DNA from: a virus
Lineage: Duplodnaviria > Heunggongvirae > Uroviricota > Caudoviricetes
DNA length: 4,270 bases
Virus record (IMG/VR): IMGVR_UViG_2706794685_000016
Reading direction: 5' to 3' (one strand)
In this document: piece by piece, positions 1-3,988 of the stretch
Position numbering within the stretch: position 1 is the first letter of the stretch
Layout: each line of letters begins with the position of its first letter
Program-made: the position numbers and the translations under genes
The notes under the pieces: model-generated
Seen by the model: the letters and a program-made list of their open reading frames with translations, nothing else
The model's database searches: none
Told to the model about the DNA's origin: nothing

Positions 1-282
1 ATGTCGTCGGTAATGTGTGATGGTCTGTTAGTGGGTAATGCCGAAATTATTCCGTTCAGTCCGCGCAGGTATCTTTATCACGCCTATCTGGCATATATGA
101 GGGCACACGGATTCGGTAAACCTGTAACACTGACGCGCTTCGGTAAAGATATGCCGGGGGCAATGGCGGAATATGGCAGGGAGTATATGAAACGGAAAAC
201 GAAGCACGGTTTGCGTTCAAATGTGACCCTGACAGAGGATTCAGAAGACTGGATGCCATCATGTGCAATAGGTCACAAATGA
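1..282 (+). CDS. Putative 3' end of a replication initiator gene (P4 alpha-like primase/helicase origin-binding region); possibly a complete 93-aa ORF instead
   Basis: Seen: frame open from nt 1 (ATG) to TGA at 280-282. Inference: it lies immediately upstream of an iteron array whose core TGTTCACC is the type I iteron bound by the C-terminal domain of phage P4 alpha. Function is assigned by position, not by a recognised motif in the protein. Confidence 0.4.
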   Translation: MSSVMCDGLLVGNAEIIPFSPRRYLYHAYLAYMRAHGFGKPVTLTRFGKDMPGAMAEYGREYMKRKTKHGLRSNVTLTEDSEDWMPSCAIGHK

Positions 283-309
283 CGATGGAAAAAATTAAAC
301 TTATGGAAT

Positions 310-534
310 AACTGTTCACCCTGCAATAAATGTCTTTTATATCAGTATATTATAGGGTGAACAGTTATTTATGAACTGTTCACCAAACTATTCACTGTTC
401 ACCTTTTTGATTCTTTATTGAGCTTTAAGGGTGAACAGTGGTGAACAGTTGGTGAATAGTTTTTGTGAAACTGTTAACCCATTAACATCATGAATAAAAA
501 GGGAAAATTGCAAAAGGTGAACAGGTGAAGGGTT
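310..534. repeat. Iteron array in an AT-rich intergenic region (origin-of-replication-like; ori/crr-type)
   Basis: Seen: forward copies of GGTGAACAGT(T) at 356-366, 430-439, 440-450, 451-461 (1 mismatch), 516-525 (1 mismatch), 524-534 (degenerate); reverse copies AACTGTTCACC at 310-320, 374-384, 394-403 and 469-479 (1 mismatch). Copies 356-366 and 374-384 form a perfect 11-bp inverted repeat with a 7-nt spacer; 430-461 is three head-to-tail copies. Flanked by A/T-rich sequence (481-560). Established: TGTTCACC is the P4 ori/crr type I iteron. Confidence 0.7.
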
Positions 535-1201: not shown

Positions 1202-1465
1202 NNNNNNNNNNNNNNNNNNNNNNNNNNNNNNNNNNNNNNNNNNNNNNNNNNNNNNNNNNNNNNNNNNNNNNNNNNNNNNNNNNNNNNNNNNNNNNNNNNN
1301 NNNNNNNNNNNNNNNNNNNNNNNNNNNNNNNNNNNNNNNNNNNNNNNNNNNNNNNNNNNNNNNNNNNNNNNNNNNNNNNNNNNNNNNNNNNNNNNNNNNN
1401 NNNNNNNNNNNNNNNNNNNNNNNNNNNNNNNNNNNNNNNNNNNNNNNNNNNNNNNNNNNNNNNNN
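1202..1465. other. Assembly gap (264 N)
   Basis: Seen: run of n characters; content and true length unknown. Confidence 1.
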
Positions 1466-1479
1466 ATTTACAAAAAACA

Positions 1480-1522
1480 GGCGCAAAAAAAAGCGCCCCG
1501 ATGGTGCCACCGGAGGCGCTTT
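1480..1522. terminator. Overlapping alternative hairpins (possible terminator for the gene ending in gap 1)
   Basis: Seen: GGCGC(1480-1484)-A8-GCGCC(1493-1497); alternatively AAAGCGCC(1490-1497)-N17-GGCGCTTT(1515-1522). On the minus strand the first hairpin reads GGCGC-T8-GCGCC followed by TGTTTTTTG. No strong U-tract on the + strand, so terminator function is uncertain. Confidence 0.3.
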
Positions 1523-1613
1523 GTCAGCGACAAAGGATACTGCCACTACCGAAATGATGAGTCTTAATTGTGCTGGCTTGGCAATAATTAGTCAATTCTT
1601 TTGCTGGTATGAC

Positions 1614-1643
1614 AAAAATCAGAAAACACATAATCTGATTTTT
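1614..1643. promoter_or_regulatory. Perfect 10-bp inverted repeat (operator candidate) upstream of the morphogenesis genes
   Basis: Seen: AAAAATCAGA (1614-1623), 10-nt spacer AAACACATAA, TCTGATTTTT (1634-1643). It lies about 75-100 bp upstream of the 1717 start and contains a CATAAT hexamer (1629-1634) in the spacer. Confidence 0.4.
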
Positions 1644-1716
1644 AGATAGAAAATGATTTATTTACCAGTTTTATCGATCAATAATGATGCCCGTTAATCA
1701 TAACGGAGGCAGACTT

Positions 1717-1911
1717 ATGCCAGAGAACAACAGCAGAAAACCGGATAAAAGTGCAACAGTGCACATAGACGCCGGAACTATGGAGAAGCTCGAACGCTAT
1801 CAGCAGTTCATTAAAAGTCATCACCCTGGAATGCCAGTACCCACGAAAGGGCAGATTGCGAGAAGCGCGGTTGAATACTGGTACAGGGCAACGTTAGGAG
1901 CCTGGCTATGA
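1717..1911 (+). CDS. Hypothetical small protein (64 aa from the ATG at 1717)
   Basis: Seen: strong SD GGAGG (1705-1709) 7 nt upstream of the ATG at 1717; the in-frame ATGs at 1684 and 1687 lack an SD. Stop TGA (1909-1911) overlaps the protease ATG (1908-1910) in an ATGA arrangement. No cysteines, so not an Ogr/Delta-type zinc finger. Confidence 0.55.
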   Translation: MPENNSRKPDKSATVHIDAGTMEKLERYQQFIKSHHPGMPVPTKGQIARSAVEYWYRATLGAWL

Positions 1912-3053
1912 AAACATGGTTTTCCATTAAGGCTATGGCTGATGTTGTACATGTACGCATTTATGACGAGATCGGCGGGTACGGTGTAAAAGCATCGGCA
2001 CTTACTGACGAGATCAACGCGTGCGGTAATGTGCCTGAAATCCATCTTCGCATCCATTCACCTGGTGGCGACATCTTTGAAGGGCTGGCTATCTATAACG
2101 CCCTGAAAAATCATCCGGCAAAGAAAATTGTACACATTGAAGGCATGGCGGCTTCTATGGCCTCGTTTATTGCCATGTGTGGCGATCACATCGTTATGCC
2201 TGAAAACGCGATGATGATGATACATGCCCCCCGTGGTGTTACTGCCGGAGTGTCGGGCGACGTTCGCCGCTTTGCTGACCTGATGGACAAGCTGGGCGAC
2301 ACGATGGCGGAAACCTACGCCGGAAGAACGGGCAGGAGCAAACAGGAAATCACCGCCATGATGGAGGCGGAAACCTGGATGGATGGCAATGAGTGTAAGG
2401 CTAATGGCTTCGCAGATGAGGTTATACCCGCGATTACAGCAATGGCCAGAATTGAATCAAAACGAATCGGAGATTTTTCGAATATGCCGGAAAATATTAA
2501 AAGCATGATCAGCCAGAAAACTGGCAGCGGAGAACAGGAACGACTCAACGGGATACGTGAATTGTTTGGCACGTTCAATGGAAGATATAACGACCTGGCT
2601 ATAAGTTGTCTTGCTGATTCAGGCTGTAGCGTTGAGGATGCACGCGAACGCCTTTTACTCACTATGGGTAAAGAATCGACACCGACAAACAAAACCACCC
2701 CCGCAAATCTTTACTACGCGTACACGGATAACGGCAACATAACCGGCGATGCAATGCGTCAGGGGCTTAATGCGCGTCTGGGACATGAACAGGCAGAACG
2801 CGGCAACCCTTACGCCATGATGAGCCTTTTCGATATGGCACAGGCATCATTAACCCATCGCGGCATAAGCACAGGCAGCTACAGCACACGCTCGCAGATA
2901 GTAAACGCGGCATTCACCCACAGCAGCAGCGATTTTACTTATATCCTTGCTGGTGGTGCTGAAAAATCCGTGAACACAGCGGCGAAACGTTCCGCCAGTG
3001 GACGAAAAAAGGTTCATTGTCAAACTTCCATGAGGCACGTCGTGTTGGCCTGA
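1908..3053 (+). CDS. ClpP-family prohead (head maturation) serine protease with about 190-aa C-terminal scaffold/linker-like extension
   Basis: Seen: AGGAG (1896-1900) 7 nt before the ATG. The N-terminal half carries ClpP signature motifs in the right order: IHSPGGD (cf. ClpP INSPGG), GMAASMASF with the putative catalytic Ser codon at 2154-2156 (cf. GQAASMGAF), MIHAP with the putative His codon at 2223-2225 (cf. MIHQP), and WMDGNE...FADEVI (cf. the Asp-containing C-terminal region). Established: ClpP-like proteases of this kind process HK97-type proheads. Confidence 0.85.
   Translation: MKTWFSIKAMADVVHVRIYDEIGGYGVKASALTDEINACGNVPEIHLRIHSPGGDIFEGLAIYNALKNHPAKKIVHIEGMAASMASFIAMCGDHIVMPENAMMMIHAPRGVTAGVSGDVRRFADLMDKLGDTMAETYAGRTGRSKQEITAMMEAETWMDGNECKANGFADEVIPAITAMARIESKRIGDFSNMPENIKSMISQKTGSGEQERLNGIRELFGTFNGRYNDLAISCLADSGCSVEDARERLLLTMGKESTPTNKTTPANLYYAYTDNGNITGDAMRQGLNARLGHEQAERGNPYAMMSLFDMAQASLTHRGISTGSYSTRSQIVNAAFTHSSSDFTYILAGGAEKSVNTAAKRSASGRKKVHCQTSMRHVVLA
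3005..3011 (+). other. A_AAA_AAG heptamer in phase with the protease ORF (candidate -1 frameshift site or homopolymer indel hotspot)
   Basis: Seen: frame-0 codons are CGA(3003-3005) AAA(3006-3008) AAG(3009-3011), so the heptamer A AAA AAG is in the phase required for tandem slippage. The -1 frame is open from 2963 and continues for 216 codons into the capsid ORF; frame 0 stops at 3051-3053. Established: A_AAA_AAG is the E. coli dnaX slippery sequence. Confidence 0.35.
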
Positions 3054-3659
3054 ATGGCTTCTCTACATTAAACAAAGTGCCGGAAGGCGCGGAATATAAA
3101 TACATCACCACCAGTGACCGTGGCGAACCAATCGCGCTGGCAACTTACGGAAATATTTTCAGCATTACCCGACAGGCGATTATTAACGATGACCTGAATC
3201 AGTTAACAGTTATCCCACAGGCAATGGGGCGAGCAGCCGCCAGAACGGTGGGTAATCTGGTTCATCTGGTGCTGACAGGAAACACAAAGCTTTCTGACGG
3301 TATACCGCTGTTCAGCAAAAAACACGGAAATGATATTGATAACGGAGTCAGCACTACAGGGCTTGGCATTGCACGCCGTGCAATGCGCACACAGAGGGAT
3401 GAAAACGGTGAGGTGCTGAATATTGTGCCAAAATTCCTTCTTGTTCCTGCGGCTCTGGAAGACAGAGCGTTGCAAATGGTTAACTCAACCACGCCTTTCG
3501 GTGCCGATACAAACAGTGGTTCATATAACCCGTACCACAAACAACTGGATATTATTGTCGATCCCCGCCTTGATGAAGTCAGTGATAAGCAATGGTACAT
3601 GCTTTCAGCACAGGGAACGGACACAATTGAGGTGGCTTATCTTGACGGTAATGACGAGC
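3017..3659 (+). CDS. Major capsid protein domain (HK97-fold-like), 3' end lost in assembly gap; no credible independent start
   Basis: Seen: long ORF in the -1 frame relative to the protease. Its only candidate start is TTG at 3017 with a poor SD; the first in-frame ATG is about 70 codons in. It contains PKFLLVPAALEDRAL, resembling the N-P-x-D-W-A-A-L type motif of HK97-family capsid proteins. Position directly after a prohead protease supports the call. The frame after 3659 runs through Ns. Confidence 0.6.
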
Positions 3660-3933
3660 NNNNNNNNNNNNNNNNNNNNNNNNNNNNNNNNNNNNNNNNN
3701 NNNNNNNNNNNNNNNNNNNNNNNNNNNNNNNNNNNNNNNNNNNNNNNNNNNNNNNNNNNNNNNNNNNNNNNNNNNNNNNNNNNNNNNNNNNNNNNNNNNN
3801 NNNNNNNNNNNNNNNNNNNNNNNNNNNNNNNNNNNNNNNNNNNNNNNNNNNNNNNNNNNNNNNNNNNNNNNNNNNNNNNNNNNNNNNNNNNNNNNNNNNN
3901 NNNNNNNNNNNNNNNNNNNNNNNNNNNNNNNNN
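3660..3933. other. Assembly gap (274 N)
   Basis: Seen: run of n characters; content and true length unknown. Confidence 1.
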
Positions 3934-3988
3934 AGATTCTTTACAAAAAATCTGAGCTTGTTTTCTTAACCAGCGCGATGGGGGCACA

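What the first reader, a model, noticed from the sequence alone, without database searches (positions are those of the whole stretch)
1614..1643. Perfect 10-bp palindrome upstream of the morphogenesis operon
AAAAATCAGA-N10-TCTGATTTTT is a perfect dyad within the 250-bp intergenic region that precedes the 64-aa ORF, protease and capsid genes. That is the expected place for the control point where a helper- or element-encoded regulator switches on capsid gene expression. It is too A/T-rich to be a good intrinsic terminator stem.
Basis: seen in the sequence. Interest (0 to 1): 0.45.

Follow-up and report, generated by a model that had tools for sequence, protein, structure and literature searches.

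The report
Lineage-specific palindrome beside satellite capsid promoter
The perfect 10-bp palindrome is real and sits just upstream of a conserved promoter-like block that precedes the capsid genes of an E. coli/Shigella phage satellite, but related satellites keep the block and not the symmetry, so the palindrome is probably not the switch.

Summary
The dyad AAAAATCAGA-N10-TCTGATTTTT is at 1614-1643 exactly as described. About 0.005 such repeats are expected by chance in the visible intergenic stretch.

The window is a Gram-negative phage-inducible chromosomal island (PICI) of the EcCICFT073 type. This copy is decaying: its primase is split and its protease-capsid gene is frameshifted. The two N-masked runs hide two lambda-like cos sites, and the dyad lies outside the cos unit.

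I compared 45 distinct relatives of this region.
- The 10/10 symmetry occurs only in the window's own lineage.
- Most close relatives keep a 7-bp core, which chance alone gives in 28% of shuffles.
- Four relatives break the core without compensation.
- Twenty-six relatives, plus three deeper ones, have no dyad.

What all of them keep is a block at about 1619-1686. It ends in TTTATT-17 bp-AATAAT, with a GATC just before the -10 hexamer. This is a sigma-70-like promoter that would start transcription near 1692. The dyad centre would then lie near -63.5, and its right arm falls in an UP-element-like T-tract.

As RNA the hairpin is weak (-7.8 kcal/mol), so it is not a terminator. No regulator could be linked to it.

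Verdict: the promoter is probably real, the palindrome is only partly part of it, and interest is modest.

The parts
1614..1623 (.). Left arm of the dyad (AAAAATCAGA). Only its inner part is conserved outside the window's lineage, as TC[A/T]GAA at 1619-1624.
1624..1633 (.). 10-nt spacer (AAACACATAA). It contains a -10-like CATAAT at 1629-1634. Its sequence varies among close relatives, and one relative has a 9-nt spacer.
1634..1643 (.). Right arm of the dyad (TCTGATTTTT). It lies inside the conserved block. TCT and the T-tract 1639-1642 are conserved in all classes.
1619..1686 (+). Conserved promoter-like block shared by all classes of related satellites. Flanking sequence is mosaic on both sides. 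The left edge falls at about the same place in three unrelated upstream contexts, and the right edge is immediately after the -10 hexamer.
1657..1662 (+). Candidate -35 hexamer TTTATT. Relatives have TTTATC, TTTACT or TTTACG.
1676..1679 (.). GATC (Dam methylation site) in the promoter spacer just upstream of the -10 hexamer. It is kept in every relative examined, including the deepest.
1680..1685 (+). Candidate -10 hexamer AATAAT. Deeper relatives have AATGAT or TATTAT. A at position 2 and T at position 6 are always kept. The predicted start is about 1692 (inferred, not mapped).
1705..1709 (+). Shine-Dalgarno GGAGG, 7 nt before the ATG of the small ORF. It is partly inside a small hairpin (CCGTT 1691-1695 / AACGG 1702-1706).
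1717..1911 (+). 64-aa ORF (PHROG 4934, function unknown). It was found in related satellites and in no phage record. Its stop overlaps the start of the protease-capsid gene (ATGA).
1908..3053 (+). ClpP-like prohead protease part of the protease/major-capsid fusion gene. It is frameshifted in this copy. The gene is intact at 626 aa in L299 and L300.
3017..3659 (+). Major-capsid (HK97-fold, Phage_capsid_4) part of the same gene in another frame. It continues into the second masked run.
1479..1525 (.). A-run / G+C-rich hairpin / T-run, terminator-like in both directions. It lies between cos1 and the promoter block.
1466..1477 (+). Right end (ATTTACAAAAAA) of the cos1 unit; the rest of the unit is masked. 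The same end is seen at cos2 (3941-3951) and at the helper prophage's own cos just before its terS gene.

Best explanation
The dyad lies on the upstream flank (about -78 to -49) of the promoter for the satellite's late operon (64-aa ORF, then the protease/major-capsid fusion). The functional unit is the conserved block at about 1619-1686, not the palindrome.

The block consists of:
- a weak -35 (TTTATT);
- a 17-bp spacer carrying a GATC;
- a -10 (AATAAT);
- an A/T-rich upstream part with a T-tract (1639-1643) followed by an A-tract (1650-1653), placed where the two subsites of an UP element lie.

The right arm and the inner five to six bases of the left arm belong to this block. The outer bases that make the repeat a perfect 10-mer are substitutions specific to this lineage. 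The perfect symmetry is therefore most likely incidental, or at most a recent local elaboration.

The promoter is needed because terminators and a cos site separate the operon from upstream satellite transcription. Elements embedded in a helper prophage's late operon could also be read through passively.

Shown: the sequence, its conservation pattern and its consensus matches. Inferred: promoter activity, the start site near 1692, and the UP-like role.
For: Identity of the element:
- The gene order is that of a Gram-negative PICI (PMC6092414, PMC10111431).

Need for a promoter here:
- The SSB gene is followed by a terminator, then cos1, then a second terminator-like hairpin at 1479-1525. Transcription must restart or be antiterminated before the capsid operon.

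Conservation pattern:
- Identity to the E. coli relative L002 is about 93% across cos1, 60-80% across 1485-1616, and about 90% again from 1617 to the ORF.
- About 170 further E. coli genomes match only 1631-1686.
- Among 43 aligned distinct sequences the invariant or near-invariant positions are TC.GAA 1619-1624, TAATCT 1631-1636, TTTT 1639-1642, TAGAAA 1647-1652, TTTAT 1657-1661 and 1667-1686.
- Class A, class B and L249 have three unrelated sequences upstream of about 1618. Two unrelated leaders follow 1686.

Promoter signal:
- TTTAT[T/C]-17-AATAAT is the only sigma-70-like candidate at the same position in all nine sequences scored. It is top-ranked in six of them.
- Relatives whose small ORF is only 59-64% identical keep it as TTTACT-17-AATGAT and TTTACG-17-TATTAT. 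They retain A2, T6, the 17-bp spacing and the GATC.

The dyad is not conserved:
- 10/10 pairing is found only in the window lineage.
- A 7-bp core is found in 14 distinct class A sequences.
- The core is broken in 4.
- Pairing is 2-5 of 10 in 26 class B/C sequences.
- A 7-bp core of this kind is expected by chance in 28% of shuffles.
Against: - No transcription start has been mapped, and I found no paper that characterises this promoter.
- The PWM score of the candidate promoter is modest (8.45 bits with approximate frequencies). The A/T-rich block gives other promoter-like hits: ATGACA-16-TAATCT in the window, and TTAATC-17-TATGTT or TATATT in classes B and C.
- Within class A, conservation resumes at about 1617, the start of the 7-bp core. 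That is also what an operator would produce.
- A 10/10 repeat has a chance expectation of only about 0.005 in this stretch.
- The match to the UP-element consensus is partial and was judged by eye.
Confidence: 0.5

Rival explanations
1. The dyad is a genuine operator for a dimeric regulator in class A satellites. One version is an activator centred near -63.5 of the TTTATT/AATAAT promoter (class I geometry). The other is a repressor overlapping a second, lineage-specific promoter (ATGACA 1608-1613, with CATAAT 1629-1634 or TAATCT 1631-1636). The only element-encoded candidate always present with the dyad is the 64-aa ORF product (autoregulation). A helper-encoded or host protein is the alternative.
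For: - The perfect 10/10 symmetry is rare by chance.
- The 7-bp core is kept in 14 of 18 distinct E. coli class A sequences, and conservation within class A resumes at the core's left edge.
- Its centre near -63.5 is close to the positions used by class I activators (established knowledge of CRP-type promoters).
- E. coli class A sequences carry a third half-site, TTTCTGA-N6-TCAGAAA, sharing the middle TCAGA.
- The model element EcCICFT073 has a different perfect 15-bp inverted repeat in front of its own small ORF and capsid operon.
- The presumed N-terminal strand of the small ORF (VH[I/L]DA) is invariant across ORF types.
Against: - The symmetry is not conserved. Four class A variants break one arm, and one of them also shortens the spacer. 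None compensates.
- Classes B and C and deeper relatives keep the block with no inverted repeat, in combination with three different small-ORF types.
- There is a single copy per element.
- L002 (with dyad) and L041 (without) carry the identical AlpA protein WP_001095275.1.
- There is no TCTGA cluster upstream of alpA.
- The small ORF gave no DNA-binding signal in Pfam, in a PDB sequence search, in Foldseek, or in hhalign against Arc/Mnt/CopG/ParD.
Confidence: 0.22
2. The palindrome has no function at all. It is a chance product of A/T-rich, low-complexity promoter-upstream DNA (an A-run and a T-run around the near-palindromic pentamer TC[A/T]GA) in a decaying element.
For: - The ancestral 7-bp core is expected by chance in 28% of shuffles.
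- The three outer pairs vary freely among relatives.
- TCAGA and TCTGA differ only at the central base, so one substitution turns class B's direct repeat into class A's inverted repeat.
- The window copy is degenerate, with a split primase and a frameshifted capsid gene.
Against: - The right arm and TC.GAA of the left arm sit in positions conserved across all classes, so the DNA under the dyad is constrained even if the symmetry is not.
- The perfect dyad is identical in all five assemblies checked, including elements whose primase and capsid genes are called intact.
Confidence: 0.2
3. The dyad acts as an RNA hairpin, either a terminator or attenuator for transcripts coming from upstream or a leader structure.
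For: - It has an A-run / stem / T-run layout.
- In class B relatives a true rho-independent terminator (GCCGGA...TCCGGCTTTTTT) sits immediately upstream of the block. EcCICFT073 has a strong hairpin plus T6 there.
Against: - The RNA fold is -7.8 kcal/mol with z = -1.3, and 25 of 200 shuffles fold as well.
- The stem has only 2 G-C pairs and a 10-nt loop. The T-run is part of the stem rather than a tail.
- The terminator scan does not call it.
Confidence: 0.03
4. The dyad is part of the packaging signal, as a cosB-type site for small terminase or an Rpp-like protein, or as a DNA-bending site for packaging.
For: - It lies about 300 bp to the right of cosN of cos1.
- EcCICFT073-type PICIs are known to have unusual cosB regions read by an Rpp-TerS complex (PMC6739421).
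Against: - The cos unit shared by cos1, cos2 and the helper prophage ends at TTTACAAAAAA (window 1467-1477). In the helper, terS starts about 45 bp later.
- The dyad and block are absent after cos2.
- L302 has the block with no cos upstream.
- There is no IHF consensus.
- Neither this element nor L001/L002 shows a terS or rpp-like gene.
Confidence: 0.03

Closest known systems
Gram-negative PICI EcCICFT073 (Fillol-Salom et al. 2018, 2019)
   Same: - Same gene order: int, alpA, small genes, DUF4222, primase, iteron origin, small ORF, SSB (with or without PerC), intergenic region, small ORF overlapping a capsid gene, and a 93-aa ORF.
- Two lambda-like cos sites.
- Unidirectional transcription.
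- A palindrome also sits in front of its small ORF and capsid operon.
   Different: - EcCICFT073 has a lambda E-type capsid plus a decoration gene, not a ClpP/MCP fusion.
- Its cos sites lie downstream of the capsid genes, one of them inverted, and it carries rppA.
- Its upstream region is unrelated in sequence: TTGCTC-16-TATAAT overlapped by a perfect 15-bp inverted repeat followed by T6, 28 nt before the ORF.
- Only PalpA has been studied experimentally. I found no study of the late promoter.
Class I activator-dependent sigma-70 promoters (for example CRP at -61.5) and UP-element promoters
   Same: - Weak -35 and a reasonable -10.
- A dyad centred near -63.5.
- An A/T-rich -40 to -60 region with a T-tract followed by an A-tract.
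   Different: - The CRP consensus is not met. The best match, TATGA-N6-TCAGA at 1608-1623, scores 8/10, is centred near -76.5 and is absent in class B.
- The UP consensus is only partly matched.
- No activator is known.
P2/P4 late promoters (Ogr/Delta sites, TGT-N12-ACA near -55)
   Same: A satellite morphogenesis operon switched on from a promoter with a poor -35 and an upstream element of partial dyad symmetry.
   Different: - There is no TGT-N12-ACA near -55.
- The helpers here are lambdoid siphoviruses whose late genes are controlled by Q antitermination, not by an Ogr-type activator.
- No Delta/Ogr homologue was seen.
SaPI operon I (LexA-controlled packaging operon)
   Same: A satellite packaging/capsid operon with its own regulated promoter.
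   Different: There is no LexA box in 1526-1716. The only CTGT-N8-ACAG-like match is the SD-proximal hairpin, with 2 mismatches.

Membership tests
Gram-negative PICI (EcCICFT073 type) | Integrase, then AlpA-family regulator, then primase/replicase, all co-oriented, in an element of about 10-15 kb | tested here: met
   L299 and L300 carry the window's element intact. They encode Phage_integrase, Phage_AlpA, DUF4222 and a D5_N/DUF5906/Pox_D5 primase in one orientation over about 10 kb. The window itself holds only the primase C-terminal fragment.
Gram-negative PICI (EcCICFT073 type) | Iteron-type origin downstream of the primase gene | tested here: met
   GGTGAACAG-type repeats and a perfect inverted repeat at window 300-530.
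Gram-negative PICI (EcCICFT073 type) | Carries helper-type cos site(s) | tested here: met
   Two lambda-like cosQ/cosN units in L003 at the positions of the window's masked runs. They resemble the cos of the lambdoid prophage in L002.
Gram-negative PICI (EcCICFT073 type) | Induced and transferred by a helper phage | not testable with these tools
   Only context is available: relatives sit inside gpA of lambdoid prophages.
Sigma-70 promoter | -35 and -10 hexamers with 16-18 bp spacing, A2 and T6 in the -10 | tested here: met
   TTTATT(1657)-17-AATAAT(1680), 8 of 12 matches. The built-in scan, which needs 9 of 12, did not call it. My PWM ranks it first in the window.
Sigma-70 promoter | Hexamers and spacing conserved in diverged relatives | tested here: met
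   Same position and 17-bp spacer in all nine sequences tested. The variants AATGAT and TATTAT keep A2 and T6.
Sigma-70 promoter | Mapped transcription start | not testable with these tools
   No data found in the searchable literature.
Operator of a dimeric transcription factor | Dyad symmetry at the site | tested here: met
   10/10 complementary arms with a 10-nt spacer.
Operator of a dimeric transcription factor | Symmetry and half-site spacing conserved, or changed in a compensated way, in relatives | tested here: not met
   The perfect form is in one lineage only. Four variants are broken on one side, one of them with a 9-nt spacer. It is absent from 26 class B/C sequences and three deeper relatives.
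Operator of a dimeric transcription factor | A cognate regulator that co-occurs or co-varies with the site | tested here: inconclusive
   The AlpA allele does not co-vary. The class A small ORF is always present with the dyad but also occurs without it. Its DNA-binding nature is unproven.
Intrinsic (rho-independent) terminator | Stable G+C-rich stem followed by a U-tract | tested here: not met
   -7.8 kcal/mol, z = -1.3, 2 G-C pairs, and the T-run is part of the stem.
LexA box, CRP, IHF, CII, FNR, Fur and Ogr/Delta sites | Match to the published consensus at a sensible promoter position | tested here: not met
   Pattern scan of 1526-1716. The only near match is a CRP-like 8/10 at 1608-1623. 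Consensus sequences were taken from my own knowledge.
cosB / terminase-binding region | Lies within the cos unit shared with the helper and with the second cos copy | tested here: not met
   The shared unit ends at window 1477.

The most novel reading that the evidence does not exclude
The conserved upstream half of the block (about -74 to -38, with TC[A/T]GA, TAATCT and TAGAAA patches) is the operator of the satellite-specific small protein encoded by the first gene of the operon (PHROG 4934, with an invariant VH[I/L]DA segment, possibly ribbon-helix-helix-like). That protein autoregulates or times capsid-gene expression. The window's lineage has remodelled the site from direct to perfectly inverted half-sites. 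This would define a dedicated late-gene regulator and operator pair for Gram-negative PICIs, whose late-operon control appears to be undescribed in the literature I could search.
Probability: 0.12. Interest if true: 0.5.

Novelty: new member of a known kind. Interest (0 to 1): 0.27.

Why it matters
How Gram-negative PICIs switch on their captured capsid genes is not described in the literature I could search. Only AlpA autoactivation at PalpA has been studied.

The comparative analysis gives a concrete, testable promoter: a block at 1619-1686, a start near 1692, and a conserved GATC. It also shows that experiments should target the whole block rather than the eye-catching palindrome.

If the promoter responds to a helper, to Dam methylation state or to the small ORF product, it would explain how stand-alone elements time capsid expression. 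Elements embedded in a helper's late operon can rely on read-through instead.

As it stands, the palindrome itself is an ordinary, lineage-specific feature.

Tried and rejected
- **Terminator or attenuator:** rejected on folding energy and on the lack of a separate U-tail.
- **Part of cos/cosB:** rejected. The cos unit shared with cos2 and with the helper ends at 1477.
- **Known factor sites (LexA, IHF, CII, FNR, Fur, Ogr/Delta):** no match. The CRP-like site is weak and not conserved.
- **AlpA site:** there is no second copy of the dyad or block in the element, no TCTGA cluster upstream of alpA, and the same AlpA occurs with and without the dyad.
- **Mimicry of a helper late promoter:** no phage DNA match to the block, even at E = 10.
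- **Known RNA family:** none in Rfam.
- **Small ORF as a ribbon-helix-helix protein:**
  - Pfam gave nothing significant.
  - The PDB sequence search gave nothing.
  - The single-sequence AlphaFold model has pLDDT 67 and two helices.
  - Foldseek gave no hit.
  - This remains an untested idea.
- **Wider taxonomic sampling:** two scans of species-representative genomes found no relative. The family appears confined to E. coli/Shigella-type strains plus a few divergent contigs.

Full report
**Observation.** The window reads AAAAATCAGA (1614-1623), AAACACATAA (1624-1633) and TCTGATTTTT (1634-1643). This is a perfect 10-bp inverted repeat with a 10-nt spacer.
- In dinucleotide-preserving shuffles, such a repeat (arms of 10 or more, loop of 20 or less) is expected 0.074 times in the unmasked window. 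It is expected 0.004-0.007 times in the visible intergenic stretch 1466-1716.
- As RNA the hairpin is weak: -7.8 kcal/mol, z = -1.3, and 25 of 200 shuffles fold as well. It has no separate U-tail, and the terminator scan does not call it.

**What the window is.** The ORFs are, in order:
- a primase C-terminal fragment (Pox_D5);
- an 81-aa protein (PHROG 1231);
- an SSB;
- the 64-aa ORF (PHROG 4934, function unknown);
- a ClpP-like prohead protease fused to an HK97-fold major capsid protein, frameshifted here;
- a 93-aa ORF (PHROG 1561).

Related, fully annotated loci place these genes inside elements of about 10 kb. Their order is integrase, AlpA-family regulator, Icd-like protein, DUF4222, primase or RepA, SSB, capsid gene, sometimes a small terminase gene, and the 93-aa ORF.
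- These elements are inserted at tRNA-Pro/yejO, at tqsA, between cspD and clpS, or inside the terminase gene gpA of lambdoid prophages.
- This is the Gram-negative PICI architecture of EcCICFT073 (PMC6092414, PMC6739421). The gpA-embedded copies match the 'helper-embedded' form (PMC10111431). I retrieved EcCICFT073 itself for comparison.
- The exact 64-aa protein is indexed in 3780 blocks of the assembly collection. The window's copy matches the variants with an IS-split primase and a frameshifted capsid gene, so it is a decaying copy. L299 and L300 carry it intact.

**The masked runs.** The near-identical locus L003 shows that the two N-runs hide two lambda-like cos sites (cosQ and cosN, for example CCACGGGGCGGGCGGTTCGCGG).
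- One follows the SSB gene and its terminator. The other follows the capsid gene.
- Both units, and the cos of the helper-type prophage in L002, end in TTTACAAAAAA. In the prophage, terS follows about 45 bp later.
- In the window this end is at 1467-1477 and again at 3941-3951. The dyad, about 140 bp further on, is therefore outside the cos unit.
- Between cos1 and the dyad lies a terminator-like hairpin that reads in both directions (1479-1525). A poorly conserved patch follows it.

**Comparative test of the dyad.** I collected the homologous region from:
- E. coli complete genomes: 151 genomes match at 84-87% identity, and 318 match when only the core block is required;
- IMG/VR contigs;
- metagenomes;
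- assemblies that encode the same or diverged small ORFs.

Forty-five distinct sequences anchored on the -10 region were compared.
- The 10/10 dyad is found only in the window's own lineage. It is identical in L297-L301.
- Fourteen distinct class A sequences keep only the 7-bp core AATCAGA-N10-TCTGATT. Their three outer pairs vary (AAT...TTC, TTA or TTT).
- Four class A sequences break the core on one side (TCTAATT three times, AATTAGA once). One of them also has a 9-nt spacer. None has a compensating change.
- Twenty-six class B/C sequences pair at only 2-5 of 10 positions. At the place of the left arm they have a rho-independent terminator followed by GTCTGAA.
- A 7-bp core of this kind is expected by chance in 28% of shuffles.
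- Deeper relatives, whose small ORF is 59-64% identical (L302, L305, L303), have no inverted repeat either.

**What is conserved instead.**
- Identity between the window lineage and L002 is about 93% over cos1, 60-80% over 1485-1616, and about 90% from 1617 to the ORF.
- Across all classes the invariant or near-invariant positions are:
  - TC.GAA (1619-1624);
  - TAATCT (1631-1636);
  - TTTT (1639-1642);
  - G1645;
  - TAGAAA (1647-1652);
  - TTTAT (1657-1661);
  - TA (1663-1664);
  - 1667-1686.
- The block has three unrelated left-hand neighbours (class A, the class B terminator, and L249). It has two unrelated right-hand leaders, which begin immediately after CAATAATG.
- A simple sigma-70 weight matrix ranks TTTATT(1657)-17-AATAAT(1680) first in the window. 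It finds the same pair at the same position in all nine sequences tested.
- In the deeper relatives the pair becomes TTTACT-17-AATGAT and TTTACG-17-TATTAT. These keep the 17-bp spacing, A2 and T6 of the -10, and the GATC just upstream of it.
- This is the pattern expected of a real promoter whose start lies near 1692. The start site is inferred, not mapped.
- With that start, the dyad centre is near -63.5. The right arm spans -58 to -49 and the left arm -78 to -69.
- The conserved T-tract (in the right arm) and the A-tract at 1650-1653 lie where the distal and proximal UP-element subsites lie. This rests on established knowledge of UP elements. The match is partial and was judged by eye.

**Search for a regulator.**
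- The dyad occurs once per element, and no 9-mer of the block recurs in other intergenic regions.
- L002 (with dyad) and L041 (without) encode the identical AlpA protein WP_001095275.1, while L001 (with dyad) has another allele. AlpA type therefore does not track the dyad.
- There is no TCTGA/TCAGA cluster upstream of alpA.
- Class A small ORFs occur with class A, B and C upstream regions. The class B block serves three small-ORF types.
- The small ORF has no Pfam family, no PDB sequence relative and no phage homologue.
- It has few relatives overall: eight cluster representatives among 1.84 billion proteins.
- A single-sequence AlphaFold model (pLDDT 67) shows an unstructured N-terminus and two helices. 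It gave no Foldseek hit.
My impression that it is RHH-like is therefore unsupported.
- No phage DNA resembles the block. No Rfam family matches.
- Consensus scans for LexA, IHF, CII, FNR, Fur and Ogr/Delta sites were negative. A CRP-like TATGA-N6-TCAGA (8 of 10) at 1608-1623 is badly placed and not conserved.

**Comparison with the model element.**
- In EcCICFT073 the equivalent intergenic region is unrelated in sequence.
- It has a near-consensus TTGCTC-16-TATAAT.
- This is overlapped by a perfect 15-bp inverted repeat (AATCATAACTGGATG-AA-CATCCAGTTATGATT) followed by a T-run, 28 nt before a 68-aa ORF that overlaps the capsid gene.
- The general layout recurs: a palindrome-bearing control region, then a small ORF, then the capsid gene. 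The sites themselves are not homologous.
- The papers I could read characterise only PalpA. They do not describe a late promoter.

**Conclusion.**
- The most likely reading (about 0.5) is that the dyad lies on the upstream flank of a genuine, conserved promoter for the satellite's late operon.
- Its right arm and inner left arm are part of that block, but the perfect symmetry is a lineage-specific accident or elaboration.
- A true operator confined to class A elements remains possible (about 0.2).
- So does complete lack of function of the symmetry (about 0.2).
- The RNA-hairpin and packaging roles are unlikely.
- The finding is a reasonable lead to an uncharacterised promoter in a known satellite family, but it is not surprising in kind.

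Noticed in passing
window 1202-1465 and 3660-3933 (masked); read in L003 1192-1455 and 3650-3968: The two N-runs hide two lambda-like cos sites in the same orientation, bracketing the small ORF and capsid module. Both resemble the cos of the lambdoid prophage in L002, including the cosB side up to TTTACAAAAAA. This differs from EcCICFT073, where cosB differs from the helper's and cos2 is inverted.
   Followed up: partly
window 1676-1679: A GATC (Dam site) sits in the promoter spacer immediately upstream of the -10 hexamer. It is kept in every relative, including the most diverged (L302, L303, L305). It could couple promoter activity to replication or methylation state.
   Followed up: no
L143 33379-33440 (EcCICFT073): A near-consensus promoter TTGCTC-16-TATAAT is overlapped by a perfect 15-bp inverted repeat followed by a T-run, 28 nt before the small ORF and capsid operon. 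It looks like either an operator over the start site or a leader terminator that would need antitermination.
   Followed up: partly
window 1-282 and 1908-3053 / 3017-3659: This copy is decaying. Only the C-terminal fragment of the primase is present (IS-split in L297 and L298), and the protease/capsid fusion gene is frameshifted. L299 and L300 carry intact versions (596-aa primase, 626-aa fusion).
   Followed up: partly
window 300-530: Replication-origin-like iterons (GGTGAACAG and variants in both orientations), including a perfect inverted repeat of 10 bp or more at 356-385. Diverged relatives use other iterons (GTCTCCACC in L303, GTAACCCAC in L305).
   Followed up: no
window 3366-3386: A perfect 21-bp palindrome, GCATTGCACG-C-CGTGCAATGC, lies inside the capsid coding region.
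   Followed up: no
L002 1993-12240 and L041 206-10600: These relatives are inserted inside the large terminase gene (gpA) of lambdoid prophages and are co-oriented with the late operon. This is the helper-embedded PICI configuration. The host prophage encodes its own ClpP/MCP fusion homologous to the satellite's.
   Followed up: partly
window 1717-1911; L041 7088-7297; L143 33463-33669: A small ORF (59-81 aa) always precedes the capsid gene, and in every locus examined at the junction (window, L041, L143, L297-L305) its end overlaps that gene's start. It was found in these satellites and in no phage record. Its N-terminal segment is conserved (VH[I/L]DA in the window's family, VSVYISPD in EcCICFT073). 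Its function is unknown.
   Followed up: partly
L002 9140-9174: E. coli class A relatives carry two overlapping 7-bp inverted repeats that share the middle TCAGA: TTTCTGA-N6-TCAGAAA and AATCAGA-N10-TCTGATT. Class B relatives instead have two or three direct TCTGA-like copies. The pentamer persists while its arrangement changes.
   Followed up: partly
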